The notes under the pieces were generated by a model, which was not told the DNA's origin, searched no databases, and saw only the letters and a list, made by a program, of their open reading frames with translations. This document shows, piece by piece, positions 1 through 55,018 of a stretch of DNA of 64,000 bases. This DNA is from a virus, in the IMG/VR virus record IMGVR_UViG_3300032315_001186, positions 1-64,000 of that record. One strand, given 5' to 3'. The stretch's first letter is position 1. Each line of letters opens with the position of its first letter. The translations under genes and the position numbers were made by a program.

Positions 1-297
1 AACACAAACACCAACTACTACTCAAACACCTACCAATACTCCGTCTAGTACAATAACACAAACACCAACTACTACTCAAACACCTACCAATACTCCGTCT
101 AGTACAATAACACAAACACCAACGAATACTCCTACAACGTCTATAACGTCATCAGTAACACCAACGAATACTCCTACAACGTCTATAACGTCATCAGTAA
201 CCCCAACTAAAACTGTAACACCAACGAATACTCCTACAACGTCTATAACGTCATCAGTAACCCCAACTAAAACTGTAACACCAACGAATACTCCATC
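1..297 (+). repeat. Coding tandem repeats (54 bp period, then 42/60 bp period)
   Basis: 1-54 is repeated at 55-108; the unit acaccaacgaatactcctacaacgtctataacgtcatcagta recurs at about 116, 158 and 218; all periods are multiples of 3. Confidence 0.9.
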
Positions 298-565
298 CGT
301 TACACCTTCACAAAGTGGTTTTGTTTCTTATGCATACACTAATTTAGGTACTGGAGGAAGTGATCCTGAAGCTTGTTCGGAAGGTGGTACCACATTCTAT
401 GGTATTAGAGCGAGTTTTTCAGGCCTTCAGATCGGTGATATCCTTTATATTGATACAAATTTGAATACCCCTGCGACTGGATTTGGATTTGTTTCAAACG
501 GTATTATTCATTACCAAATTGATGGTGGTACTGGTGAAATTACAACAATTTCTGGTCTTTGTTAA
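1..565 (+). CDS. 3' end of a Thr/Pro/Ser-rich (mucin-like) repeat protein with a C-terminal Cys-bracketed module (partial)
   Basis: Open frame from nt 2 (TQTPTTTQTPTNTPSSTIT...EACSEGG...GDILY...GEITTISGLC) to TAA at 563-565; missing from the ORF track because its start lies outside the window. Confidence 0.85.
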   Translation, partial: TQTPTTTQTPTNTPSSTITQTPTTTQTPTNTPSSTITQTPTNTPTTSITSSVTPTNTPTTSITSSVTPTKTVTPTNTPTTSITSSVTPTKTVTPTNTPSVTPSQSGFVSYAYTNLGTGGSDPEACSEGGTTFYGIRASFSGLQIGDILYIDTNLNTPATGFGFVSNGIIHYQIDGGTGEITTISGLC

Positions 566-10630: not shown

Positions 10631-12751
10631 TTAACAAGGTACACCCCATTGAGGTTTCTCAGCCGTCGTCCAAGATATTGGTGTCCCAGTATCGAAGTTA
10701 GTCGGTTGAACAGGGATTATTTCGACACACCAAGAACTAATATCTTGGTCGAACGAACTTGCGTTTAAGAACATAGAGAACATATTGTTGGCATTAGCGG
10801 TGTCCCAATAGGCTATTGATTGATTGAAATTTGAACAACCTGAAAACGTAGAACTGAAGTTTGATACACTAGTGGTATTCCAAGATACTAATGGTTGGTT
10901 AAATAACGAACATCCCGCAAACGTAGTTCCCAAATTAGTTACGTTAAAACCACTAAAAATAGGCGAATTAAATGATGAACAACTTCTAAATGTGTTTGCT
11001 AATGATACACTACCAATATTCAACATATCCCAGCTAGAAAGATTTTGGTTGAAAGAAATACATCCGAAAAACATACCACTCATAAGTGTACAACTAGACA
11101 TGTCCCAATTCGTCATTGGAGCGTTGAACAATGTACAGTTTCGGAACATTTCTGTCGTGTTAGTTACGGCTGACATTGTCCAACCTGAAAGATAAGGGAA
11201 TAAAGTTATACTATTACAATTCTCGAACCAACTGTCCATACTCGTTACACCTTGTGTGTTTAATGTGTCTGTAAGTGCGTTGAGTGTTAAACCAGTACAG
11301 TTGAAAAATGCTCCAGTAGATTGAAGTGACCCGTAATTAATTTTAAGTTGACCCCATTGACTAATAGTTTTAAAATTATTTTTACTTGTACTATTCCCAC
11401 TAAATGACCATCCCTCAATTGTACCCGTAATAGATACTGTGTAAGTACCTGGAGACACATATGTATGTGAATTTGATGAAAAAAATGTAATTGTGTCGTA
11501 CTGACCATCGCCCCAACTAACGAAGAAATTATAATTACCAAAACTCAACAATGGTAATTGAATCTGTTCATTTGATGTTGTGGTTTCCCATGTACTAACA
11601 AAAGATGTTGGAACTATTGGGTCGGTTTGCGTTGGAGTTGGTGTTGCGTTAAGTGTTTGTGTTGGTGTTAAAGTATTAGTTGGTGTTGGTGTTTGTGTTG
11701 AACTCGAGGTTGGTGTTAAAGTATTAGTTGGAGTCAAAGTACTTGTTGGGGTAACTGTGGGTGTTCGAGTTGGAGTTGTCGTGATAGTTGGAGTCACAGT
11801 TGCTGAGGGTGTATTTGAGGGTGTAACCGCTAGACAGGCACAAGCTGGTTGATTACATATATTTTCAATAATAAGTGCAGGATCAACAATATATGTATCT
11901 GGAGTACCTATAGTACTGTTCCAAAAATAATAACAATCTCCTTCAAATTGAATTCCACTGTCTTGTGGTATTTCTATACTGTTTGAAATTGCAACGATCA
12001 CCGAATTACTTGGAGGACAACAATTAATATATTCAAAAATGTTAAAAACTGTAGTTGGTGTGTTTGTCGGAGTAAGTGTTGGGGATGATGTAACAGAAGG
12101 TGTTAAACCAATAGTTTGTGTTGGTGTGACTGTAGAAGATGGTGTTGGTGTTGGATTATTAGAAGTCGGTGTTACGGTTGGTGTGGGTGTATGTGTTGGG
12201 GTTACCGTACTTGTGGGAGTATTCGATGGGGTTGCAATAATGTTATTACAAGATGTAACACTTGTAATTGTAGACCCTGAATTTTGATAATATAAAACAA
12301 AACCAGTTGTTGAGTTATCTTGTGTTGACGTAAGTGCTCTGTATCTATCCGCTGACACTACAACTATGGGTTCATCAGTTGATACACTAAAAACTTGATC
12401 ACCAGGTCCTAAGGATGAAAGAGGTTTGGTTGTATATCCAATCAACAAAAGTGGTGTAAAGGCTCCAGCCAAACGACTACACGCAACTAATGAACTCGTC
12501 CTTAGAATATTAGAATCTGAGTAGACGTAAAATTTAGTTATCGATGGTGTCGTACTCGGAAAGTCAATTGTGTTAGTGATATTTTGACCTTCACTTGCAG
12601 TAATCAAGGTATTTGTTATGTACCAAACATTGATAGTCTCATTAGGTAAAATTTGTTGATTATCTATTAATAGATTGTCACCACATCTTCGATAAGTAAT
12701 CGAACTGATTTGAGATAGTGTATTTTGTATTGTTGACTTTTTACAGAACAT
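10631..12751 (-). CDS. Mucin-like Thr/Pro-rich protein with PKD-like and DUF285/BspA-type repeat domains
   Basis: Two TP-rich tracts; VSWGDG...HTY..PGTYTVSI (PKD-like); repeats of MF..C..FN..L..WD. Confidence 0.8.
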   Translation of the reverse strand: MFCKKSTIQNTLSQISSITYRRCGDNLLIDNQQILPNETINVWYITNTLITASEGQNITNTIDFPSTTPSITKFYVYSDSNILRTSSLVACSRLAGAFTPLLLIGYTTKPLSSLGPGDQVFSVSTDEPIVVVSADRYRALTSTQDNSTTGFVLYYQNSGSTITSVTSCNNIIATPSNTPTSTVTPTHTPTPTVTPTSNNPTPTPSSTVTPTQTIGLTPSVTSSPTLTPTNTPTTVFNIFEYINCCPPSNSVIVAISNSIEIPQDSGIQFEGDCYYFWNSTIGTPDTYIVDPALIIENICNQPACACLAVTPSNTPSATVTPTITTTPTRTPTVTPTSTLTPTNTLTPTSSSTQTPTPTNTLTPTQTLNATPTPTQTDPIVPTSFVSTWETTTSNEQIQLPLLSFGNYNFFVSWGDGQYDTITFFSSNSHTYVSPGTYTVSITGTIEGWSFSGNSTSKNNFKTISQWGQLKINYGSLQSTGAFFNCTGLTLNALTDTLNTQGVTSMDSWFENCNSITLFPYLSGWTMSAVTNTTEMFRNCTLFNAPMTNWDMSSCTLMSGMFFGCISFNQNLSSWDMLNIGSVSLANTFRSCSSFNSPIFSGFNVTNLGTTFAGCSLFNQPLVSWNTTSVSNFSSTFSGCSNFNQSIAYWDTANANNMFSMFLNASSFDQDISSWCVEIIPVQPTNFDTGTPISWTTAEKPQWGVPC

Positions 12752-18921: not shown

Positions 18922-20460
18922 ATGGCTCTACCTAAAAAAGTAATACCAAATATTAATTTAGTCCCTCCAAAAATTTTACTTGAGAGGAGAGAACAATTAT
19001 TACAGGATATTACAGAAGACGGAACATATCTTCCAAAGAATTTGGGTTATGCCGAAATGGATAGAGGATTTTTAGATTTTGTTAAAAATGAACTTAAAAC
19101 AGTTGTTGAGGGAAAAGTAATTCCAACAATTGACATTCTTATAACAACACAAAACTGGGCACAATTTACTCAAACTTGGTCTTTTCAAGATTTGAACGGC
19201 AACACCGAACCACCCTTTATTACGGTGGTGAGAGTTCCTGAAGTAAAATATGGTACAAATCCTGCGACTCTTTATAATATCCCAAACCAAAAAGAATTTT
19301 TCTATGCAGCTGTACCTACTTGGAATGGTAATGTAAAGGGGCTTGACATTTATAAAATACCACAACCAGTACCTGTTGATATCTCGTTTAGTGTAAAAAT
19401 TGTTTGTAATCGAATGAGAGAACTCAACGAGTTTAACAAAAATGTTCTTCAGACATTCGCATCACGTCAAGCGTACACTAAAGTTAATGGGCACTTTATC
19501 CCAATTGTAAACACAAACATAAGTGATGAATCTGTCACACAGGTTGATAAAAGAAGATTTTACATCCAAAATTATGATTTCACACTTTTGGGATTCCTAT
19601 TAGATCAAGATAAGTTCGAGGTAGCACCTGCGGTCTCTAGAGTTCTTAATGTTTTTGAGACCAATATGAAACCCATAAATCGTAAAAGAAAAAGATTCCC
19701 TGTGAATGAAGGTGTCTTTGATCTTACGATTCAAGCGGTAAGAAACTCCCCTGTTATTAGGACAATCAGTGTTGATTATACAGGTACTTTTACAATTTTA
19801 TCAACCCAAAATGTGAGTACCTATGATTTGTTTGTTAGGTTAAACACCAGTACAGAGTTTGACTATTATGGGACAAATGTTGTCAATTTTGAGGTGAATA
19901 CTGGTGACCAGTTACGATTTGAAATTACTCAAGAAAATGCCGACCCAACTTCTACCATAACATATGGGGTATCTTTTTTAGGTTCACCACAAAATTTAAC
20001 TTTCGATTTACCAACCCCGTCAATTACCCCAACAAACACAATAACCCCTTCTATTACACCAACGAGTAGTTTGACACCAACACCATCAATAACCCCAACA
20101 AAGTCAACAACACCAACGAATAGTTTGACACCAACACCTACTATCACTCCGACAAAAACTTCTAGTTTATGTCAATCTTTGGAATTAATTTGTAATAATT
20201 ATGAAATAACCAATACAACGTCTTCAGCACAACCACTTTTATTAGTATATTCAGCATGTACAAATCAACCGACAGTATCATCAATTACTTTGAGTTCTGG
20301 ACAAACCACTAACTTTTGTGCAGTAGCATACACAATAGCTTATTCTGGTGGTCATATAATTAATCAAACGGGAACTTGTGGAAAATTCTGTTCTTCATTT
20401 ACAAACATTTTCCTACATATACCAAATTTGACTCCAACACCTACTCCAAGTCTATCGTAA
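18922..20460 (+). CDS. Putative tail terminator/completion protein (gp15-like) with TP-rich C-terminal extension
   Basis: Just upstream of the sheath gene; PQPVPVDISFSV motif; TPS/TPT repeats in the C-terminal third. Confidence 0.55.
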   Translation: MALPKKVIPNINLVPPKILLERREQLLQDITEDGTYLPKNLGYAEMDRGFLDFVKNELKTVVEGKVIPTIDILITTQNWAQFTQTWSFQDLNGNTEPPFITVVRVPEVKYGTNPATLYNIPNQKEFFYAAVPTWNGNVKGLDIYKIPQPVPVDISFSVKIVCNRMRELNEFNKNVLQTFASRQAYTKVNGHFIPIVNTNISDESVTQVDKRRFYIQNYDFTLLGFLLDQDKFEVAPAVSRVLNVFETNMKPINRKRKRFPVNEGVFDLTIQAVRNSPVIRTISVDYTGTFTILSTQNVSTYDLFVRLNTSTEFDYYGTNVVNFEVNTGDQLRFEITQENADPTSTITYGVSFLGSPQNLTFDLPTPSITPTNTITPSITPTSSLTPTPSITPTKSTTPTNSLTPTPTITPTKTSSLCQSLELICNNYEITNTTSSAQPLLLVYSACTNQPTVSSITLSSGQTTNFCAVAYTIAYSGGHIINQTGTCGKFCSSFTNIFLHIPNLTPTPTPSLS

Positions 20461-42757: not shown

Positions 42758-42777
42758 TTCAATATCAATATATTTAT

Positions 42778-43017
42778 AATAAATCCACCGAAAAACCCAT
42801 CGGTTTTCAGCCGATGGGATGGAAGGTGTGAATTGACTAAAAAAAACCAAATGAAAAACATCCAAATTAAAGGATATAAACAAACATCGTCAGGAACTGA
42901 CGATTACAGACGTGGAGATGAAATAAGACCAACTATTGTTCACACAATCAATGAAGCGTCCAAAATTCTGAACTTAGTTTCAGAAACCCAACCATCTTTA
43001 GTGGTTGGGTAGTTCAA
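42778..43017 (+). mobile_element. Non-autonomous IS200/IS605-derived mini-element (copy 1) with TnpB omega-RNA-like scaffold
   Basis: Left hairpin CCCATCGG..CCGATGGG (42796-42818); right hairpin ACCCAACCA..TGGTTGGGT (42986-43010) ending GTTCAA; repeated at 54323-54552. Confidence 0.75.
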
Positions 43018-43029
43018 TGAAAAAAGATT

Positions 43030-43254
43030 ATGGAACTACAAAATATTTTAGACAATTATTTGGGTAAAAGAACGCGTTATACCCAAAAACAAGTAGCAAA
43101 TGGCTTTAGTGAGGTTTGCGATTTAGATACAGGTGACTGTTATACTGTTAGAGAAAGAGACGGATTAATTGAGAGAGTTGACAATACAATGAGAACAAAT
43201 AAAAAAATCCAAGTAGAAACATCTCACGGAATTAAACAATTATTAAATGGATAA
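43030..43254 (+). CDS. Hypothetical protein
   Basis: 74 aa ORF with CDLDTGDC. Confidence 0.65.
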   Translation: MELQNILDNYLGKRTRYTQKQVANGFSEVCDLDTGDCYTVRERDGLIERVDNTMRTNKKIQVETSHGIKQLLNG

Positions 43255-50211: not shown

Positions 50212-51402
50212 ATGGAAGTTGTAAAAAGAGACGGAACAAGAGAATATGTGAAATTTGAAAAAATTTCATCAAGAATCAAAAAGCAAACATATGGTTTGAA
50301 TGAAGATTATGTTGATTACTTTGAAGTATCAAAAAAAGTAATTGCTGGTTTATATGACGGAGTGACAACGGAGGAACTAGATCGATTGGCTGCGGAAACA
50401 TCAGCATCACTAGTAACTAATCATCCTGATTATTCTACCTTGGCGGCACGTATTGCGATTACGTCGTTGTATAAAAGAGTTGATAAAAGGTTCACGGCTA
50501 CAGCAGATAAGTTATATCATTACATCAATCCTAAAACAGGAGAGAAAGCGGGTATGATTTCAGATGAAGTGTACAAAGTAATTGTTCAACACGGAAAAGA
50601 ATTGGATGCGATGGTTGTCCATGATCGTGATTTTAATTTTGATTACTTTGGTTTCAAAACCTTAGAAAAAAGTTATCTACTTAAAATGTTTGGTGAGGTT
50701 GCAGAAACCCCCCAACATTTATACATGAGGGTTGCTGTAGGTATTTGGCTTGATAATTTGGAAATGGTACAAAAAACCTATGATATGTTATCACAAGGGT
50801 TATTTACCCATGCAACACCTACGTTATTTAATTCTGGAACCAAACGACCACAATTGAGTTCTTGTTTCTTGTTAGATATTGATGATGATTCAATTCCTGG
50901 AATTTACAAGACATTATCAGATTGTGCGGTGATATCTCAAAATGCTGGAGGTATAGGTGTAAATATTCACAAAATAAGAGCTAAAGGTGCTTATATTAAA
51001 GGAACCAATGGATCTTCAAATGGTATTATCCCTATGTTGAAGGTGTTTAATGAAACTGCCCGGTATGTTGATCAGTGTTTTGTTCCAGATACAAAAGTTA
51101 AAACAAATCTTGGTTATAAAAAAATTTCAGAGATTACTGTTGGTGATATGGTTTTGAATTCAAACGGTACTTACAATCCAGTATCAAATGTCAAGAAGTT
51201 CGAAAAGAATGAAAGAGATTTTATAACCATCAATTCTTCTATTGGTGAGAATACTGTAACACGAGGGCACCTATATCTTACAATAAAAAATGGTAAGAAA
51301 GATGAAAACTTAACATATAAAATTCAAAACAAGTTGGTAAAAGCGGAATGGGTTGAAGCTGAAAATTTGACAACTGAAGATATTTTGATTAAAATGAAAT
51401 AA
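50212..51402 (+). CDS. nrdA: Ribonucleotide reductase alpha subunit, N-terminal part (ATP cone) plus split intein N-fragment
   Basis: VVKRDG ATP cone, ATPTLFN, QLSSCF, NETARYVDQ, then CFVPDTKV intein start. Confidence 0.93.
   Translation: MEVVKRDGTREYVKFEKISSRIKKQTYGLNEDYVDYFEVSKKVIAGLYDGVTTEELDRLAAETSASLVTNHPDYSTLAARIAITSLYKRVDKRFTATADKLYHYINPKTGEKAGMISDEVYKVIVQHGKELDAMVVHDRDFNFDYFGFKTLEKSYLLKMFGEVAETPQHLYMRVAVGIWLDNLEMVQKTYDMLSQGLFTHATPTLFNSGTKRPQLSSCFLLDIDDDSIPGIYKTLSDCAVISQNAGGIGVNIHKIRAKGAYIKGTNGSSNGIIPMLKVFNETARYVDQCFVPDTKVKTNLGYKKISEITVGDMVLNSNGTYNPVSNVKKFEKNERDFITINSSIGENTVTRGHLYLTIKNGKKDENLTYKIQNKLVKAEWVEAENLTTEDILIKMK
51076..51399 (+). mobile_element. Split intein N-fragment (108 aa)
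   Basis: Block A CFVPDTKVKT..G.KKISEI.VGD.V; block B VTRGH; WVEAENL..ED. Confidence 0.88.
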
Positions 51403-51411
51403 TTTAAAACT

Positions 51412-51609
51412 ATGAAAAATACAAATATTCAATTAGACCATCAAATTTTAGATGGTGAAATCGAAAGTGAAATTGTTAATCTAAATTTAGATGAGATTGA
51501 GTTAGTAACTATAGACTCCATTCAGGAAACAAAAATAGATACTGAAGTATATGATTTGGAAATCGAGCAACTCCCAAATTATACTACAGATATAAGTTTA
51601 GTTCACAAT
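51412..51609 (+). mobile_element. Split intein C-fragment (66 aa, highly acidic), followed by Gly+1
   Basis: Block F EVYDLEIE..PNY, block G LVHN; next codon GGC. Confidence 0.88.
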
Positions 51610-54288
51610 GGCGGGGGTAGGAGAAAAGGTTCTATTGCGGTATATCTTGAACCTTGGCATGCAGATGTATTTGACTTTTTAGACCTTAGAAAAAACCATG
51701 GTAAGGAAGAAATGAGAGCTCGTGATTTGTTTTTAGCTATGTGGACACCAAACCTATTTATGGAAAGAGTTGAGAGTGATGGACTATGGTCTTTATTTTC
51801 ACCTGAGGAAGTGCCTGGTTTGATTGATGCATATGATACACCTGATTCGAAAGCTTTCACTGAGCTTTATACAAAATACGAACGGGAGGGTAGAGCCATC
51901 AAAACTATCAAAGCTCGTGAACTTTGGGAAAAGATTTTGGATTCACAAATCGAGACTGGTACTCCATATATGTTGTACAAAGATGCGGCCAACTACAAGT
52001 CTAATCAAAAAAATTTGGGTACAATCAAATCGTCAAATTTGTGTATAGCAGGAGACCAAAGGGTTGTGACTTCCCTTGGGTATTTAACTGCAAAAGAACT
52101 CAATGAAATTGGTCAAAAGTTGGAATTGTTTAACAATAAAGAAATGGTTTTATCATCTGAAATGAAGTTAAGAGCAGAACAGGAAGATGTATACAAAATC
52201 ATTTTAGAAAATGGGATGGAACATAAAGTGACACCATACCATGGTATTCCAGTTTTAAAATCTTCTCGTAAAATTGAAAGGGTTGAGTGTAAAGACTTGA
52301 GAGTAGGTGACGTGGTTATGGTACAAACGAAGAAAGGTTTATTTGGTACCAAAGAAATGATAGATGAGGCTTTTTTGTTGGGTATGTATCAATCAGATGG
52401 GACACAAAGTGAGGGATCAATTATGCTTGATTTGTGGGAAAATGATTTTGATTTAGTCGAGGATATAGAAAATAGACTTCAAAAATTGTATTCTAAATAT
52501 GAATACAAACCAAGATACTCGAACAAAGGAGGAAAATTCATAGATTGTACTGTTTCATTTTCACCTGTTAAGAAAAAGAGATTAACAACCGACTTTTTCA
52601 AAAAAACTTTCCCATTTAACAAAGGATATGTACCAAGTTGGATTTGGGAATCAAATGAAGAAACACAATGGTCATATCTAAAAGGTTTGTTCTATGCCGA
52701 TGGTTCAGTATTCGTTAGTAAATCGCGAGGTAACCCAATTCAATTGTGTTATGCCGATATAAATTTAGATTTTCTCAAAGAGCTACAACTTATTTTCAAT
52801 AATTTAGGACTTCAATCTTCCATTAGATTACTTACAAAGGGTGGGGATAGACTACTACCAAATGGTAAAGGAGGACAATCAATTTATAAAACCAAAGATT
52901 GTTATAGATTAATAATTGGAAATAAAAATGATGCTTTGATATTGAATACTAAGACTGGATTTTTAGACAGAAAAAATATTATCTTAGATGAAAAAGAATA
53001 CAGAGATAACACCAAAAAAGGTCATAAAGTTAAATCTATTGAGTATGTAGGTAAAGAGGATGTCTATTGCCCAACAATCAATAACGATGAACACCTTTTT
53101 GTTTCACAAGGAATGTTAACATACAATTGCACTGAAATTCTAGAATATACAGACAAAAACGAGATTGCGGTTTGTAATTTAGCGTCAGTAGCACTTCCTA
53201 AATTTGTGGACATTCCATCAGGAAAAGTACGTGAGAAAAACAAAAAGTTGCGGACTTACAACTTCCAAAAGTTATATGAAGTTGTTTATCAAATGACAAT
53301 TAACTTGAATCAAGTAATCGATATAAATTATTATCCTACAATAGAAACAAGAACTTCAAATTTCAAACATAGACCCATAGGACTAGGAGTGCAGGGTTTA
53401 GCGGATACTTTTGCAATGTTATCCCTACCTTTTGAAAGTCCTGAGGCTCAAAAATTGAATAGTGAAATATTTGAAACAATTTATTTTGCGGCGTTGTCAG
53501 CATCAAAAGATTTGGCAATAAAACATGGTCCATATGAAACATACGAAGGATCACCAGCATCATTTGGAAAGTTACAATTTGATTTGTGGGATGTCAGTAT
53601 GGAGAATCTTTCTGGTTTATGGGATTGGAGTACATTAAAATCTCAAATTGAAAAACATGGACTTAGAAATTCCTTACTTGTAGCTCCGATGCCTACCGCG
53701 AGTACCGCACAAATTCTTGGTAATAACGAATGTTTTGAACCTTTTACAACTAACTTATACAAAAGAAATGTATTAAGTGGTGAATTTGTAATCATCAATA
53801 AACATTTGGTTGAGGATTTGGTTAACCTTGGACTTTGGAACGATAGAATTCGATTGAAACTATTTGACGGAAATGGGTCAGTCCAAAAGATAGATGAAAT
53901 ACCATCTGAGATCAGAGAAGTTTACAAAACTGTTTGGGAAATGAAGGGTAAAACTATTTTGGATATGGCTCGAGACAGAGCAATTTTTATTGACCAATCA
54001 CAATCTCTAAATATTTTTATGCAAGATGTAACACAGTCTAAGTTATCTTCGGCACATATGTATGGATGGAAATTAGGATTGAAAACAGGAATGTATTATT
54101 TGAGAACTAAGGCTAAAGCTGCGGCGATCAAAGGATTGGGTGTTGATATGTCAGCGTTGAATACTCCAGAAATACAAGAAAGTTTCAAACCCAAACCACT
54201 CGAAAACAATAATTTGACATTGACAGAAGATATGATAAACAAAGTTTGTTCTTTAGATGATCCAAATTGTTTGACATGTAGTTCATAG
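51412..54288 (+). CDS. nrdA: Split intein C-fragment plus C-terminal part of RNR alpha, with a second internal intein
   Basis: VYDLEI...VHN|GGGRRKGSIAVYLEPWH; ETGTPY; SNL[intein]CTEI; AVCNLAS; PMPTASTAQI; KTGMYYLR; C-terminal CLTCSS. Confidence 0.93.
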   Translation: MKNTNIQLDHQILDGEIESEIVNLNLDEIELVTIDSIQETKIDTEVYDLEIEQLPNYTTDISLVHNGGGRRKGSIAVYLEPWHADVFDFLDLRKNHGKEEMRARDLFLAMWTPNLFMERVESDGLWSLFSPEEVPGLIDAYDTPDSKAFTELYTKYEREGRAIKTIKARELWEKILDSQIETGTPYMLYKDAANYKSNQKNLGTIKSSNLCIAGDQRVVTSLGYLTAKELNEIGQKLELFNNKEMVLSSEMKLRAEQEDVYKIILENGMEHKVTPYHGIPVLKSSRKIERVECKDLRVGDVVMVQTKKGLFGTKEMIDEAFLLGMYQSDGTQSEGSIMLDLWENDFDLVEDIENRLQKLYSKYEYKPRYSNKGGKFIDCTVSFSPVKKKRLTTDFFKKTFPFNKGYVPSWIWESNEETQWSYLKGLFYADGSVFVSKSRGNPIQLCYADINLDFLKELQLIFNNLGLQSSIRLLTKGGDRLLPNGKGGQSIYKTKDCYRLIIGNKNDALILNTKTGFLDRKNIILDEKEYRDNTKKGHKVKSIEYVGKEDVYCPTINNDEHLFVSQGMLTYNCTEILEYTDKNEIAVCNLASVALPKFVDIPSGKVREKNKKLRTYNFQKLYEVVYQMTINLNQVIDINYYPTIETRTSNFKHRPIGLGVQGLADTFAMLSLPFESPEAQKLNSEIFETIYFAALSASKDLAIKHGPYETYEGSPASFGKLQFDLWDVSMENLSGLWDWSTLKSQIEKHGLRNSLLVAPMPTASTAQILGNNECFEPFTTNLYKRNVLSGEFVIINKHLVEDLVNLGLWNDRIRLKLFDGNGSVQKIDEIPSEIREVYKTVWEMKGKTILDMARDRAIFIDQSQSLNIFMQDVTQSKLSSAHMYGWKLGLKTGMYYLRTKAKAAAIKGLGVDMSALNTPEIQESFKPKPLENNNLTLTEDMINKVCSLDDPNCLTCSS
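52042..53127 (+). mobile_element. Contiguous intein with LAGLIDADG endonuclease at the RNR active-site Cys (362 aa)
   Basis: SNL|CIAGDQ...VTPYH...FLLGMYQSDG...YLKGLFYADG...DVYCPT...LTYN|CTEI. Confidence 0.92.
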
Positions 54289-54322
54289 AACTACATCACA
54301 AAATTCAAGGTGGTATATTTAT

Positions 54323-54552
54323 ATGAAACCCATCAGTCTTCAACCGATGGAATAAAAGATGGGAATTGATTGTAAAAAAAACCAAATGAAAAACATCCAA
54401 ATTAAAGGATATAAACAAACATCGTCAGGAACTGACGATTACAGACGTGGAGATGAAATAAGACCAACTATTGTTGGTACAATCAATGAAGCGTCCAAAA
54501 TTCTGAACTTAGTTTCAGAATCCCAATCATCTTTAGTGGTTGGGTAGTTCAA
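54323..54552 (+). mobile_element. Non-autonomous IS200/IS605-derived mini-element (copy 2)
   Basis: 54374-54552 matches 42839-43017 at 174 of 179 nt by manual comparison; left hairpin more degenerate; ends GGGTAGTTCAA. Confidence 0.75.
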
Positions 54553-54556
54553 ACGT

Positions 54557-55018
54557 ATGGCTCAAGGAAAGACATATGGAATAAGTTTTCCATTCGTGGA
54601 TAGTATGAAAGGTAAGTATTTGGAGTTAACTGAATATGTTGCTGAAGAAATCCGAACGAATCTTATTCATCTTTTACTCACAAGAAAAGGTAGTAGATAT
54701 TTTCTACCGAATTTTGGGACTAGATTGTATGAATACATTTTTCAACCAATGGACGGACCTACCTTTTCTGAAATTGAATCTGAGATACGAGACTCTGTAC
54801 AACAATTTTTACCCAACTTACAAATCACAAATATAGTCATACAGGCAGCTTCTGATGAAGCTGCTGGTATGACAGTGACAACTGCGGGAAATGTGGTTAA
54901 TCCTGAGTTATCAATACCAAATCAAAATGTCTCAGAATATACAGCTAAAGTTAGAATTGATTACGCAATTTCTAACGATGTCTTTAATTCTAAAGATTTT
55001 GTAATTATTAATATCTAA
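54557..55018 (+). CDS. Baseplate wedge protein (gp25-like)
   Basis: IRTNLIHLLLTRKGSRYFLPNFGTRL..YIF.P. Confidence 0.88.
   Translation: MAQGKTYGISFPFVDSMKGKYLELTEYVAEEIRTNLIHLLLTRKGSRYFLPNFGTRLYEYIFQPMDGPTFSEIESEIRDSVQQFLPNLQITNIVIQAASDEAAGMTVTTAGNVVNPELSIPNQNVSEYTAKVRIDYAISNDVFNSKDFVIINI

What the first reader, a model, noticed from the sequence alone, without database searches (positions are those of the whole stretch)
42778..43037. TnpB-less omega-RNA mini-transposon (copy 1): stand-alone guide RNA cassette behind a phage promoter
Seen: a ~240 bp intergenic element with a left hairpin, a short remnant reading KNIQIKGYKQTSSGTDDYRRGDEIRP, internal stems (ATCGTCAG-GAA-CTGACGAT; ATTGT-N4-ACAAT; TTCTGAA-N6-TTCAGAA), a right hairpin and a GTTCAA end. 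A second copy is about 97% identical over 179 nt and diverges exactly after TTCAA. Known: IS200/IS605 elements have subterminal hairpins and end in TCAA/TTCAA, and their TnpB omega-RNA overlaps the tnpB 3' end and uses the adjacent flank as guide. The peptide remnant resembles TnpB C-terminal tails (from memory, not aligned). Inference: a minimal non-autonomous element that lost tnpA/tnpB but kept the full RNA scaffold. Predicted guide TGAAAAAAGATTATGGAACT covers the downstream start codon. With a TnpB in trans it could cut element-free alleles of competing phages, or repress genes if the partner is nuclease-dead.
Basis: partly seen in the sequence, partly recalled or inferred. Interest (0 to 1): 0.85.

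Follow-up and report, generated by a model that had tools for sequence, protein, structure and literature searches.

The report
Gene-less TnpB guide-RNA mini-transposon in phage
A 240-base mobile element in a large lake phage has lost its nuclease gene but keeps both transposon ends and the guide-RNA scaffold of a TnpB nuclease; elements of this kind are already described, so this is a well-documented but fairly ordinary case.

Summary
Window 42778-43017 is a 240-nt insertion with exact boundaries. Close relatives and one lake-metagenome contig carry the uninterrupted site TTTAT|TGAAAAAAG.

It is an internally deleted IS200/IS605-family element of the tnpB-only type. About 75 nt of left end, with its hairpin, are fused to the last ~160 nt of tnpB. 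That stretch encodes the omega-RNA scaffold and the right-end hairpin. Full-length relatives have a 402-aa TnpB whose C-terminus matches the 53-aa remnant.

A covariance model built only from distant full-length elements matches copy 2 at 73.6 bits and copy 1 at 66.2; background is at most 11.5. The same deletion junction occurs at seven or more insertion sites, always after TTTAT of a conserved promoter-like motif. A tnpB of the matching type starts at the end of the same record.

Not shown: any RNA, any TnpB activity, or an intact partner gene. Copy 1 has two broken pairs in one conserved stem. Gene-less elements carrying omega RNAs are in print (Meers et al.), and this scan has met them in other phages. 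This is a new member of a known kind.

The parts
42770..42777 (+). ATATTTAT promoter-like phage motif. Its last five bases, TTTAT (42773-42777), are the insertion target and the inferred TAM.
   Evidence: The motif is conserved 5-14 nt before the start codon at this site and at the copy-2 site in all relatives examined, down to 57% protein identity. In the 73-kb record, 9 of its 17 occurrences lie within 50 nt upstream of an ORF start once the elements are discounted. Promoter function is inferred, not shown.
42778..43017 (+). Copy 1: a 240-nt gene-less IS200/IS605-family mini-element (left end, internal deletion, then tnpB 3' end and right end).
   Evidence: Empty alleles L133 and L137. An X5 contig joins 42777 to 43018. 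There is no target duplication. Both ends are shared with the full-length IS in L030.
42778..42850 (+). Left-end (LE) segment of the parent IS.
   Evidence: It aligns to the LE upstream of full-length tnpB in L030, in L007 and at G000 72,907-72,960. It folds at -23.2 kcal/mol, z -4.2.
42796..42818 (+). LE subterminal hairpin CCCATCGG-N7-CCGATGGG.
   Evidence: In other copies it has the same CCCA..TGGG base and TCTTTAG loop as the right-end hairpin.
42851..43012 (+). 53-codon ATG frame, a remnant of the tnpB reading frame (from N-I of the RuvC-III motif to the stop). Probably not a gene.
   Evidence: It matches the C-terminus of the 402-aa L030 TnpB. It has no Pfam family. The aligned tail of ISDra2 TnpB is disordered and dispensable (PMC10097598, passages).
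42858..43017 (+). tnpB 3'-end-derived omega-RNA scaffold region.
   Evidence: Model R1 matches 42857-43016 at 66.2 bits over model positions 1-142. Homology to L030 starts at AAACATCC.
42886..42904 (+). Scaffold stem 1 (8 bp, GAA loop).
   Evidence: Six of its pairs are in the RNAalifold consensus, four of them with compensatory changes..
42909..42960 (+). Long-range helix GACGT/GCGTC. It encloses a 3-bp middle helix and stem 2.
   Evidence: Covarying pairs at columns 55-57/102-104 and 61-64/93-95..
42929..42942 (+). Scaffold stem 2, weakened in copy 1. It reads CCAAC-TATT-GTTCA, where all 8 other full mini copies compared have GTTGG.
   Evidence: Two non-canonical pairs are marked in the cmsearch alignment. 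No X1 or X5 contig shows C-A at 42941-42942 (table 3).
42966..42985 (+). Stem 3 (7 bp), an insertion specific to the phage subfamily.
   Evidence: Absent from the 21 distant relatives used to build the model. Folded.
42987..43009 (+). Right-end hairpin CCCAACCA-TCTTTAG-TGGTTGGG. It is followed by the tnpB stop TAG (43010-12) and TTCAA (43013-17).
   Evidence: A 24-nt right-end motif is found in 51 IMG/VR loci. The stem covaries. TTTA lies 18-21 nt from the end; in ISDra2 the UUUA loop is at -20 to -17.
43018..43037 (+). Predicted guide segment (16-20 nt of flank). It includes the ATG at 43030 of the 74-aa ORF.
   Evidence: By analogy with ISDra2, where the last ~16 nt of the RNA come from the flank (PMC8612924). 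TTTAT plus this sequence is the empty allele.
54315..54322 (+). ATATTTAT motif at the copy-2 site.
54323..54552 (+). Copy 2: a 230-nt mini-element with the same deletion junction. Its left end is decayed (12 nt missing, 2 hairpin mismatches) and its scaffold is intact. It sits in front of a gp25-like baseplate wedge gene.
   Evidence: R1 scores it 73.6 bits. It folds at -42.0 kcal/mol, z -4.7. At this site 8 of 74 related loci are occupied and the rest are empty. gp25 assignment.
54553..54568 (+). Predicted guide of copy 2 (ACGTATGGCTCAAGGA). It covers the ATG at 54557.
   Evidence: Empty alleles read TTTAT|ACATATGGCT and variants of it.

Best explanation
SHOWN. Window 42778-43017 is a gene-less, internally deleted derivative of a tnpB-only IS200/IS605-family insertion sequence that lives in a clade of ~290-kb freshwater phages. 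It keeps about 75 nt of the left end, with its subterminal hairpin. It also keeps the last ~160 nt of tnpB, which in this family run to within 5 nt of the right end and encode the omega-RNA scaffold plus the right-end hairpin. It was inserted without target duplication directly 3' of TTTAT. That pentamer is part of a conserved ATATTTAT motif in front of phage genes. Copies with the same deletion junction sit at seven or more different sites, so the mini-element moved as a unit.

INFERRED.
1. Transcription from the upstream phage motif reads through the element.
2. A TnpB supplied in trans binds the scaffold. The supplier would be the full-length sibling IS whose left end and first 13 codons lie at the end of the same record.
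3. The adjoining 16-20 nt (TGAAAAAAGATTATGG...) serve as the guide.
4. The complex cuts TTTAT-flanked element-free alleles, either after excision or in co-infecting relatives.
5. Repair from the occupied genome restores or spreads the element. This is homing.
6. Jumps to new sites need a Y1 transposase from outside the phage.

For copy 1 itself, a weakened stem makes activity less certain than for copy 2.
For: Boundaries and empty sites.
- L133 and L137 read TTTAT|TGAAAAAAGATTATGG. That is 2 of 37 related loci with an exact target; 5 more differ by one base.
- An X5 contig skips exactly 42778-43017.

Parentage.
- Of 52 right-end motif hits, 14 have an open frame of more than 380 codons ending at the TAG.
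- These frames carry the Pfam families OrfB_IS605, Cas12f1-like_TNB and HTH_OrfB_IS605.
- ISDra2 TnpB matches at E 1e-79, with D, E and D aligned to D191, E278 and D361.
- The C-terminus of the L030 TnpB matches the 53-aa remnant, and the L030 left end matches the element's left part.

RNA.
- RNAalifold on 21 distant full-length 3' ends gives 31 pairs, 18 with compensatory changes.
- Model R1, built from those 21 alone, scores copy 2 at 73.6 and copy 1 at 66.2 bits over all 142 positions. The best background in the window is 11.5. Parent-type L030 scores 84.2.
- On the model-fitted alignment, 95.8% of cells pair, against 67.1% when shuffled and 31-44% when slid.
- The deletion junction lies 29 nt upstream of stem 1. 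In ISDra2 everything 5' of the 116-nt scaffold is dispensable (PMC10097598).

Mobility.
- Seven distinct pairs of flanks are fully visible, all after TTTAT.

Partner.
- G000 72,907-73,071 holds a left end plus MLKSYKYKLKPN..., of the L030/L007 type.
- Relative G006 holds a mini-element plus a tnpB 3' part 93% identical to L030.

Precedent.
- Meers et al. state that PATEs often encode omega RNAs that TnpB from other elements would have to act on in trans.
Against: - No RNA evidence. Contigs of the two RNA runs laid do not cover the element.
- The partner tnpB is seen only as 13 codons at the record's end, so its integrity is unknown.
- Copy 1 has 2 of 5 pairs broken in stem 2 and scores 18 bits below its parent type. 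In ISDra2, the paper's stems 2 and 3a contact the RuvC domain; that copy 1's stem 2 corresponds to stem 3a is my inference.
- Among 9 mini copies, paired and unpaired scaffold columns are about equally variable (8 of 72 against 14 of 88). Four of the 8 variable pairs are broken in some copy. I therefore see no clear purifying selection on structure since the gene was lost.
- A variant at the copy-2 site carries a 9-nt scaffold deletion and scores 50 bits (L008).
- A 100%-complete relative (G002, 257 kb) keeps one omega-like remnant but has no TnpB TNB domain. Remnants can therefore persist without a partner.
- No Rfam family matches.
- No tnpA was found in any of the 6 phage records searched.
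Confidence: 0.5

Rival explanations
1. Inert hitch-hiker. This is the same anatomy, a PATE-like deletion derivative of the IS, but its RNA is not used by any TnpB. It spread only because a transposase supplied in trans recognised its two hairpin ends. It is now decaying neutrally in an intergenic spot where the phage tolerates 240 extra bases.
For: - Stem 2 is broken in copy 1. The left end is decayed in copy 2. L008 has a 9-nt scaffold deletion.
- Scaffold pairs are no better conserved than loops among the mini copies.
- A complete relative, G002, has an orphan remnant and no TnpB TNB domain.
- A 103-nt ultra-mini relative, with the left-end hairpin and only part of the right end, matches R1 at just 31 bits (L010 group).
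- No RNA was seen.
Against: - The one deletion derivative that reached seven or more sites keeps about 160 nt of right end. The 103-nt relative suggests much less may suffice for the ends.
- The left-end part is more variable than the scaffold part: 26 of 81 columns against 22 of 160.
- Copy 2 kept an intact scaffold (73.6-77.2 bits) while its left end decayed.
- A cognate-type tnpB start lies in the same record.
Confidence: 0.38
2. The phage has taken the insertion over for its own use. It would act as a structured 5' leader that tunes expression of the downstream gene, or the 53-codon frame would encode a small protein.
For: - The elements lie between a conserved promoter-like motif and the start codon at every site seen, and in the gene's orientation at the sites where a downstream gene was checked. 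They would therefore be part of the leader of essential genes such as gp25.
- The 53-codon frame is open, with an ATG, in both copies.
Against: - Most close relatives lack the insertion at both sites: 37 of 37 at the copy-1 site and 66 of 74 at the copy-2 site. It is therefore dispensable.
- The position follows from the TTTAT target.
- All 5 base differences between copies 1 and 2 change the peptide. Most differences from the parent do the same.
- The peptide has no Pfam family.
- The aligned TnpB tail is disordered in ISDra2.
Confidence: 0.07
3. Guide for a nuclease-dead TnpB relative (TldR-like). This would repress the downstream gene by binding at its start codon.
For: The guide overlaps the start codon of the next gene in both copies. 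RNA-guided repressors derived from TnpB are in print (PMC10705468; I saw only the abstract in a search listing).
Against: - The cognate-type TnpB has D and E at the positions aligned to ISDra2 D191 and E278, whose alanine mutants are inactive, and D at the position aligned to D361.
- In the occupied allele the target is preceded by GTTCAA, not TTTAT, so the phage's own copy should not be bound.
- Overlap with the start codon follows simply from insertion a few bases upstream of it.
Confidence: 0.03

Closest known systems
PATEs (palindrome-associated transposable elements) of haloarchaea, and the PATE-like gene-less IS elements of Geobacillus stearothermophilus (PMC3119063, passages read; Meers et al. 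preprint 10.1101/2023.03.14.532601, passages read)
   Same: There are no terminal inverted repeats. Palindromes lie near both ends. There is no target duplication. The element is too short for a transposase. It arose from an IS605-type (IS1341/tnpB-only) element by deletion of the core. It occurs at several sites. Meers et al. state that PATEs often encode omega RNAs that would need a TnpB supplied in trans.
   Different: The host replicon is a large virulent-type phage, not a chromosome. The target TTTAT lies inside a conserved promoter-like phage motif, so every copy sits between that motif and a start codon. No Y1 transposase was found in any of the 6 phage records searched. The PATE figures and tables of both papers are in extended data or supplements that I could not see.
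ISDra2 TnpB and its omega/reRNA (PMC8612924 and PMC10097598, passages read; PDB 8BF8/8EXA/8H1J)
   Same: The cognate-type TnpB matches at E 1e-79, with the aligned catalytic D and E. The RNA comes from the tnpB 3' end plus the right end. The flank serves as guide. The TAM equals the transposon's 5-nt target. The UUUA loop of the last hairpin is at nearly the same distance from the end. A GAA/GGA triplet at the position of the ISDra2 pseudoknot bases faces an invariant UUC at the 3' end; the pairing itself is inferred.
   Different: The inferred TAM is TTTAT, not TTGAT. Here tnpB runs to within 5 nt of the right end. The internal hairpin is shorter, and the phage subfamily has an extra stem. 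In the element studied the protein gene is gone.
Free-standing homing endonuclease genes of T-even phages, and 'transposon non-restorative homing' as a concept (review PMC13565253, passages and Table 1 read)
   Same: The predicted outcome is cleavage of the element-free allele of a co-infecting relative, followed by copying of the element and its flanks.
   Different: Recognition would be by an RNA guide plus a TAM, and the nuclease would be encoded elsewhere in the genome. Nothing of this has been shown for this phage.
TldR, nuclease-dead TnpB-derived RNA-guided repressors (PMC10705468; abstract seen in a search listing only)
   Same: A guide RNA derived from the TnpB omega RNA that points at a gene start.
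   Different: The partner type here has D, E and D at the positions aligned to the ISDra2 RuvC catalytic residues. The guide is simply the insertion flank.

Membership tests
PATE / non-autonomous IS200/IS605 derivative | Palindromes close to both termini, with no terminal inverted repeats | tested here: met
   Left-end hairpin 42796-42818 and right-end hairpin 42987-43009. Both have the form CCCA-N4-loop-N4-TGGG, with the loop TCTTTAG in most copies.
PATE / non-autonomous IS200/IS605 derivative | Insertion 3' of a short fixed target, without target duplication | tested here: met
   The empty allele reads TTTAT|TGAAAAAAG and the occupied one TTTAT[240 nt]TGAAAAAAG. All 9 mini copies with a visible left flank follow TTTAT.
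PATE / non-autonomous IS200/IS605 derivative | Too short to encode a transposase or nuclease | tested here: met
   The element is 240 nt. Its only frame is 53 codons and has no Pfam family.
PATE / non-autonomous IS200/IS605 derivative | Ends shared with a full-length IS605-type element | tested here: met
   The left end and the last 160 nt align to the L030 element, which carries a 402-aa TnpB.
PATE / non-autonomous IS200/IS605 derivative | Mobilised as a unit (same element at several sites) | tested here: met
   The same deletion junction sits between seven distinct pairs of flanks.
PATE / non-autonomous IS200/IS605 derivative | Transposition by a Y1 (TnpA) transposase supplied in trans | not testable with these tools
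   Pfam Y1_Tnp gave no match in the own record or in 5 related phage records, three of them 90% or more complete. The source of any transposase is unknown.
TnpB omega RNA (OMEGA guide RNA) | Derived from the 3' end of tnpB plus the right end | tested here: met
TnpB omega RNA (OMEGA guide RNA) | Conserved secondary structure supported by covariation, present over its whole length | tested here: met
   18 of 31 pairs are compensatory on an unfitted alignment. R1 matches copies 1 and 2 over positions 1-142. Caveat: copy 1 lacks 2 pairs of stem 2.
TnpB omega RNA (OMEGA guide RNA) | Match to a curated RNA family | tested here: not met
   Rfam 15 gave nothing at gathering thresholds in the window. 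At E up to 10, the 601 nt around the element gave only chance-level hits to unrelated families.
TnpB omega RNA (OMEGA guide RNA) | Guide is the flank next to the right end; target is the TAM plus that flank in the element-free allele | tested here: met
   The guides have no other match with fewer than 2 mismatches in the 73-kb record.
TnpB omega RNA (OMEGA guide RNA) | Expressed and bound by a TnpB | not testable with these tools
   Only assembled contigs of RNA runs were available, and none covers the element.
TnpB omega RNA (OMEGA guide RNA) | Cognate TnpB encoded in the same genome | tested here: inconclusive
   A left end plus 13 codons of an L030/L007-type tnpB lie at G000 72,907-73,071, and then the record ends. 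The record is estimated 24% complete.
TldR-type RNA-guided repressor system | Partner protein lacks the RuvC catalytic residues | tested here: not met
   The L030-type TnpB has D, E and D aligned to ISDra2 D191, E278 and D361. D191A and E278A are inactive.

The most novel reading that the evidence does not exclude
The IS family has matched its 5-nt target/TAM to the core of the phage's own promoter-like motif. Every insertion then lands between a promoter and an essential gene and is transcribed automatically. One TnpB gene plus several gene-less guide cassettes would form a multi-site gene drive. It would cut and convert the element-free alleles of co-infecting relatives, and within phage populations it would spread without any transposase. 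Maturation of each guide would also consume one copy of the downstream gene's mRNA, because the guide contains its start codon. That would link the selfish element to late-gene dosage.
Probability: 0.2. Interest if true: 0.6.

Novelty: new member of a known kind. Interest (0 to 1): 0.3.

Why it matters
It gives a clean natural example, with exact boundaries, natural empty alleles and a covariation-supported RNA model. The example shows the guide-RNA module of a TnpB transposon surviving and spreading after loss of the nuclease gene, inside large lake phages that carry no transposase of their own.

If the guide is used in trans, these phages would be a natural setting to test two things. One is whether TnpB can drive homing between co-infecting viruses, an idea listed in a recent review but not shown. 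The other is how a TAM that sits inside a promoter shapes where such elements settle.

The concept itself is in print, and this scan has met similar elements in other phages, so the gain is mainly a well-characterised test case.

Tried and rejected
Searches that found nothing.
- Rfam gave nothing at gathering thresholds in the window, and only chance-level hits at E up to 10 around the element.
- blastn of the element against GenBank phages gave no match.
- A search for the nested-insertion junction of the third locus in IMG/VR gave 0 loci, so I could not recover the rest of the partner tnpB.
- Pfam Y1_Tnp gave nothing in the own record or in 5 related records.

Expression. Of 20 runs listed I laid 4: two DNA and two RNA. 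All are kept as assembled contigs. The RNA-run contigs cover parts of the downstream genes and a right end of another element type, but not copy 1. This says nothing either way about transcription.

Sigma-70 scan. It found 4 promoter-like sites against 2.2 expected, none in a useful place. I did not use it.

Selection test among the 9 mini copies. The left end is more variable than the scaffold. Within the scaffold, paired and unpaired columns vary alike, and half of the variable pairs are broken in some copy. The test is inconclusive.

Readings rejected.
- ATTGT-N4-ACAAT as a scaffold stem. It is not conserved in L030 or L007; the family stem is CCAAC/GTTGG.
- The 53-codon frame as a gene.
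- A TldR-like reading.
- The left hairpin as an independent phage terminator. It is the IS left end, although on the minus strand it does look like a terminator.

Corrections and limits.
- My notebook says 9 of 74 loci are occupied at the copy-2 site. The output shows 8 of 74.
- Model R1 was built from 21 of the 47 distinct 3' ends listed. I left out all members of the phage subfamily (so that they could serve as a test), the second stem-1 type (L009, L025, L034, L260, L272, L274) and a few near-duplicates or outliers.
- searched 93 of the roughly 280 loci then held.
The PATE figure of Meers et al. and the PATE tables of PMC3119063 may bear on how new this is.
Full report
WHAT IS THERE. The window is the first 64,000 bases of a 73,071-base IMG/VR virus record. 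The record has 33.7% G+C and is estimated 24% complete. That estimate, and related records of 257-295 kb, point to a genome of roughly 290 kb.

A second copy lies at 54323-54552. It sits between a ribonucleotide-reductase gene with an intein and a gp25-like baseplate wedge gene. The two copies share 180 nt at 97% and diverge directly after TTCAA. A 46-nt core occurs exactly twice in the window, against none in 100 shuffles.

EXACT BOUNDARIES. I fetched 37 related loci through the 216-aa protein encoded downstream of copy 1.
- None carries the mini-element at this site.
- L133 and L137 read ...ATATATTTAT|TGAAAAAAGATTATGGAACT.
- Five others differ by one base in the first three positions after TTTAT.
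- Three carry the right end of a different IS605-type element at the same spot.

In a lake-water DNA run (X5), one 1,713-nt contig joins 42777 to 43018, skipping 240 bases, with 2-3 other differences in about 640 nt of flank. In run X1, contigs cross both junctions of the occupied form. X1 may be the source sample, so it is not independent support.

The element is therefore 42778-43017, inserted 3' of TTTAT with no duplication. At the copy-2 site, 8 of 74 related loci are occupied. All 8 belong to the 15 loci of the 99%-identity group. The remaining 66 are empty and read TTTAT|ACATATGGCT or variants of it.

WHAT IT DERIVES FROM. A 24-nt motif from the right hairpin and end occurs in 51 IMG/VR loci, 52 times in all.
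- In 14 of the 52, an open frame of more than 380 codons ends at the TAG four bases before the motif's end.
- The three frames I scanned (L030, L017, L009) carry OrfB_IS605, Cas12f1-like_TNB and HTH_OrfB_IS605.
- The 402-aa L030 protein matches ISDra2 TnpB (8BF8) at E 1e-79. D, E and D align to D191, E278 and D361. D191A and E278A are inactive in ISDra2 (PMC8612924, passages). The role of D361 is recalled, not checked.
- Its C-terminus, ...NILNEGYKQISSGTDDYRRGDEIRPTPVGTIAEASKILNLVSESQPSLVVG*, is the parent of the window's 53-codon frame MKNIQIKGYKQTSSGTDDYRRGDEIRPTIVHTINEASKILNLVSETQPSLVVG*.
- DNA homology to L030 starts at AAACATCC, the N-I codons of the last RuvC motif, and runs to TTCAA.
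- About 125 nt upstream of the L030 tnpB start lies the same sequence as the window's 'left hairpin' (TAAATCCACCGAAAAACCCATCGG...CCGATGGGATGGAAGGTGG). This hairpin is therefore the IS left end.
- There is no room for a tnpA inside the full-length element.

The mini-element is thus the left end (about 75 nt) fused to the last ~160 nt of tnpB and the right end.

A THIRD LOCUS, OUTSIDE THE WINDOW. At G000 72,680-72,900, on the minus strand, lies the 3' remnant of a second TnpB type. It reads ...WTCSSCGTTHDRDVLAANNIKHFAFTKNNTAGTA* and matches Pfam TNB at 35.8 bits over model positions 22-60. A relative (L017) has the full 399-aa gene at the same site. That type is 43% identical to the L030 type.

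The remnant is cut off by a plus-strand insertion at 72,907. The insertion consists of a left end, the ATATTTAT motif and ATG TTA AAA TCA TAC AAA... (MLKSYKYKLKPN), which is the start of an L030/L007-type tnpB. The record then ends. So a cognate-type tnpB begins in the same phage record, but whether it is intact is unknown.

THE RNA. From 47 distinct tnpB 3' ends I aligned 21 distant ones. They come from elements whose TnpB is 53-63% identical to L030, and none is from the phage subfamily.
- RNAalifold gave 31 pairs, 18 with compensatory changes. They form a 5' hairpin, a long-range helix enclosing a short helix and a second hairpin, and the terminal hairpin.
- The covariance model built from these (R1) matches copy 2 at 73.6 bits and copy 1 at 66.2 bits, both over model positions 1-142. 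The third-locus remnant scores 29.4, and the best background hit in the window scores 11.5.
- Over 93 sources, ends of the phage subfamily attached to full-length tnpB score 82.7-89.8. Examples are L030 at 84.2 and L007 at 84.5.
- Mini-elements score 77.2 (L047, L051), 73.6, 66.2 and 50.0. The last is L008, which has a 9-nt deletion.
- On the model-fitted alignment, 95.8% of cells pair, against 67.1% in shuffles and 31-44% with slid partners. 29 of 31 pairs show double changes. That alignment leans towards the model; one search is the unfitted control.
- Single-sequence folds give the same helices: copy 1 at -37.1 kcal/mol (z -3.6) and copy 2 at -42.0 (z -4.7).

Comparison with ISDra2 (PMC10097598, passages):
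- The functional ISDra2 scaffold is 116 nt, and everything 5' of it is dispensable. Here the deletion junction lies 29 nt upstream of the first scaffold hairpin.
- The TTTA of the last hairpin loop lies 18-21 nt from the end. In ISDra2 the UUUA loop is at -20 to -17.
- By the protein alignment, the GAA loop of stem 1 falls where ISDra2 has the pseudoknot bases that pair with -5 to -3. Here it faces an invariant UUC at the 3' end. That pairing is my inference.

THE WEAK POINT OF COPY 1. Bases 42941-42942 are C-A, where all eight other full mini copies and the parents have G-G. This breaks 2 of the 5 pairs of stem 2. No contig of X1 or X5 shows C-A there (table 3). Contigs drop rare variants, so this is either a private change or an assembly error. 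In ISDra2, the paper's stems 2 and 3a contact the RuvC domain; I infer that copy 1's stem 2 corresponds to stem 3a, so the change may matter.

MOBILITY AND TARGET. The junction-specific 29-mer finds 10 IMG/VR loci and 6 metagenome contigs. With the window's two copies, these give seven distinct pairs of flanks, and every visible left flank ends in TTTAT. One deletion derivative therefore spread as a unit.

TTTAT is the end of ATATTTAT. That motif is conserved 5-14 nt before the start codon at both sites in every relative examined, down to 57% protein identity. In the record, 9 of its 17 occurrences lie within 50 nt upstream of an ORF start once the elements are discounted. One of those lies inside the IS left end, about 25 nt before the tnpB ATG, and is invariant in three left ends. 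I read it as a phage promoter or a similar start signal. That is an inference from conservation only.

TRANSPOSASE AND PARTNERS ELSEWHERE.
- No Y1 transposase domain was found in the own record or in five related phage records, three of them 90-100% complete.
- One complete 257-kb relative has a single omega-like remnant and no TnpB TNB domain.
- Among five fragments that hold a mini-element, one also holds a tnpB 3' part 93% identical to L030 plus a full TnpB of another type. One holds an L017-type TnpB. Three show only the mini-element.

IS THE RNA STILL UNDER SELECTION? The evidence is mixed.
- Among 9 full mini copies, the left-end part varies at 26 of 81 columns and the scaffold part at 22 of 160.
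- Copy 2 has lost 12 nt and two hairpin pairs of its left end while keeping the scaffold.
- Inside the scaffold, however, paired and unpaired columns vary alike (8 of 72 against 14 of 88). Four of the eight variable pairs are broken in some copy.

MECHANISM. The anatomy, the origin by internal deletion, scarless insertion after TTTAT, spread as a unit, and the presence of empty alleles matching TAM plus guide are shown. The remaining steps are inferred: read-through transcription from the upstream motif, binding by a TnpB made elsewhere in the phage, cleavage of empty alleles, and copying of the element by recombination. For these I rely on ISDra2 and Geobacillus work read in passages. I put about even odds on the family's RNA being used in trans, and somewhat less for copy 1 itself.

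COMPARISON WITH WHAT IS KNOWN. The element meets every descriptive criterion of PATEs given in Table 4 of PMC3119063. Meers et al. already say that PATEs often encode omega RNAs that TnpB from other elements would have to act on in trans. A 2026 review lists homing between co-infecting phages as a conceivable mode. TnpB genes in phages have been reported.

My searches were TnpB with PATE and guide RNA; with bacteriophage, homing and IS605; with phage genomes and omega RNA; with jumbo phage; and with palindrome-associated transposable. None turned up a paper describing such mini-elements in phages or a TAM embedded in a phage promoter motif.

The scan's own index lists 84 earlier notes with these words in at least 75 genomes, among them follow-ups on other phages that reached the same reading. 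I did not test those. This is a new member of a known kind.

Noticed in passing
G000 72,680-73,071 (outside the window; L004 1500-1892): Nested insertion. The 3' remnant of an L017-type tnpB, with its own omega-like region (R1 29.4 bits), lies on the minus strand. It is cut off by a plus-strand L030/L007-type IS whose left end and first 13 tnpB codons reach the end of the record.
   Followed up: yes
window 16400, 20695, 26446, 26485(-), 12774(-); G000 65873, 73001: The motif ATATTTAT recurs just upstream of ORF starts on both strands and inside the IS left end before tnpB. It is conserved at two sites across distant relatives. It is a candidate phage promoter or start signal that doubles as the IS target.
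   Followed up: partly
L139, L140, L170 (relatives, copy-1 site): In three relatives a different IS605-type right end (...TTCAACCATATTTAGTGTTTGAATAGTTTCAT) occupies the same intergenic site. The site is a hot spot for the family.
   Followed up: no
L010, L011, L020, L023, L024, L028, L035, L050: An ultra-mini relative: 103 nt from the left-end hairpin motif to the right-end tip. It keeps only part of the right end and matches R1 at just 31 bits. It has the same flanks in all 8 loci, and its left flank ends in GAAAT, not TTTAT.
   Followed up: partly
G002 (257,166-bp related phage record, 100% complete, inverted terminal repeats): It carries one omega-like remnant (60.2 bits, next to a 152-codon frame) but no TnpB TNB domain and no Y1 transposase. 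This is an orphan remnant in a complete genome.
   Followed up: partly
window 51412-54288: The ribonucleotide-reductase large-subunit gene holds an intein with a LAGLIDADG domain (Pfam). First-stage notes also describe a split intein just upstream, at 50212-51630.
   Followed up: no
window 42796-42818, minus strand: Read on the minus strand, the IS left-end hairpin is followed by TTTTT and scores as an intrinsic terminator. It might stop antisense transcription into the element.
   Followed up: no
window 1-313, 20026-20162, 11616-12221: Thr/Pro-rich coding repeats with periods of 42-54 nt lie at the first two places. A GGTGTT-rich repeat lies on the opposite strand at the third. They fall in several large ORFs.
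   Followed up: no
runs X1 and X5 laid on window 42779-43026: Word depth inside the element is 3 to 20 times that of the flanks, and loose ends lead into many different flanks. One loose end leads into full-length L030-type tnpB sequence in X5. Many copies of this IS family therefore coexist in these lake samples, together with the empty allele.
   Followed up: partly
L134-L136, L138, L141 (empty copy-1 sites): The empty alleles differ from the predicted guide only within the first three bases after TTTAT (TAA, TTA or TGG instead of TGA). That is the TAM-proximal region where mismatches abolish ISDra2 cleavage. This could be escape from cutting, or chance.
   Followed up: no
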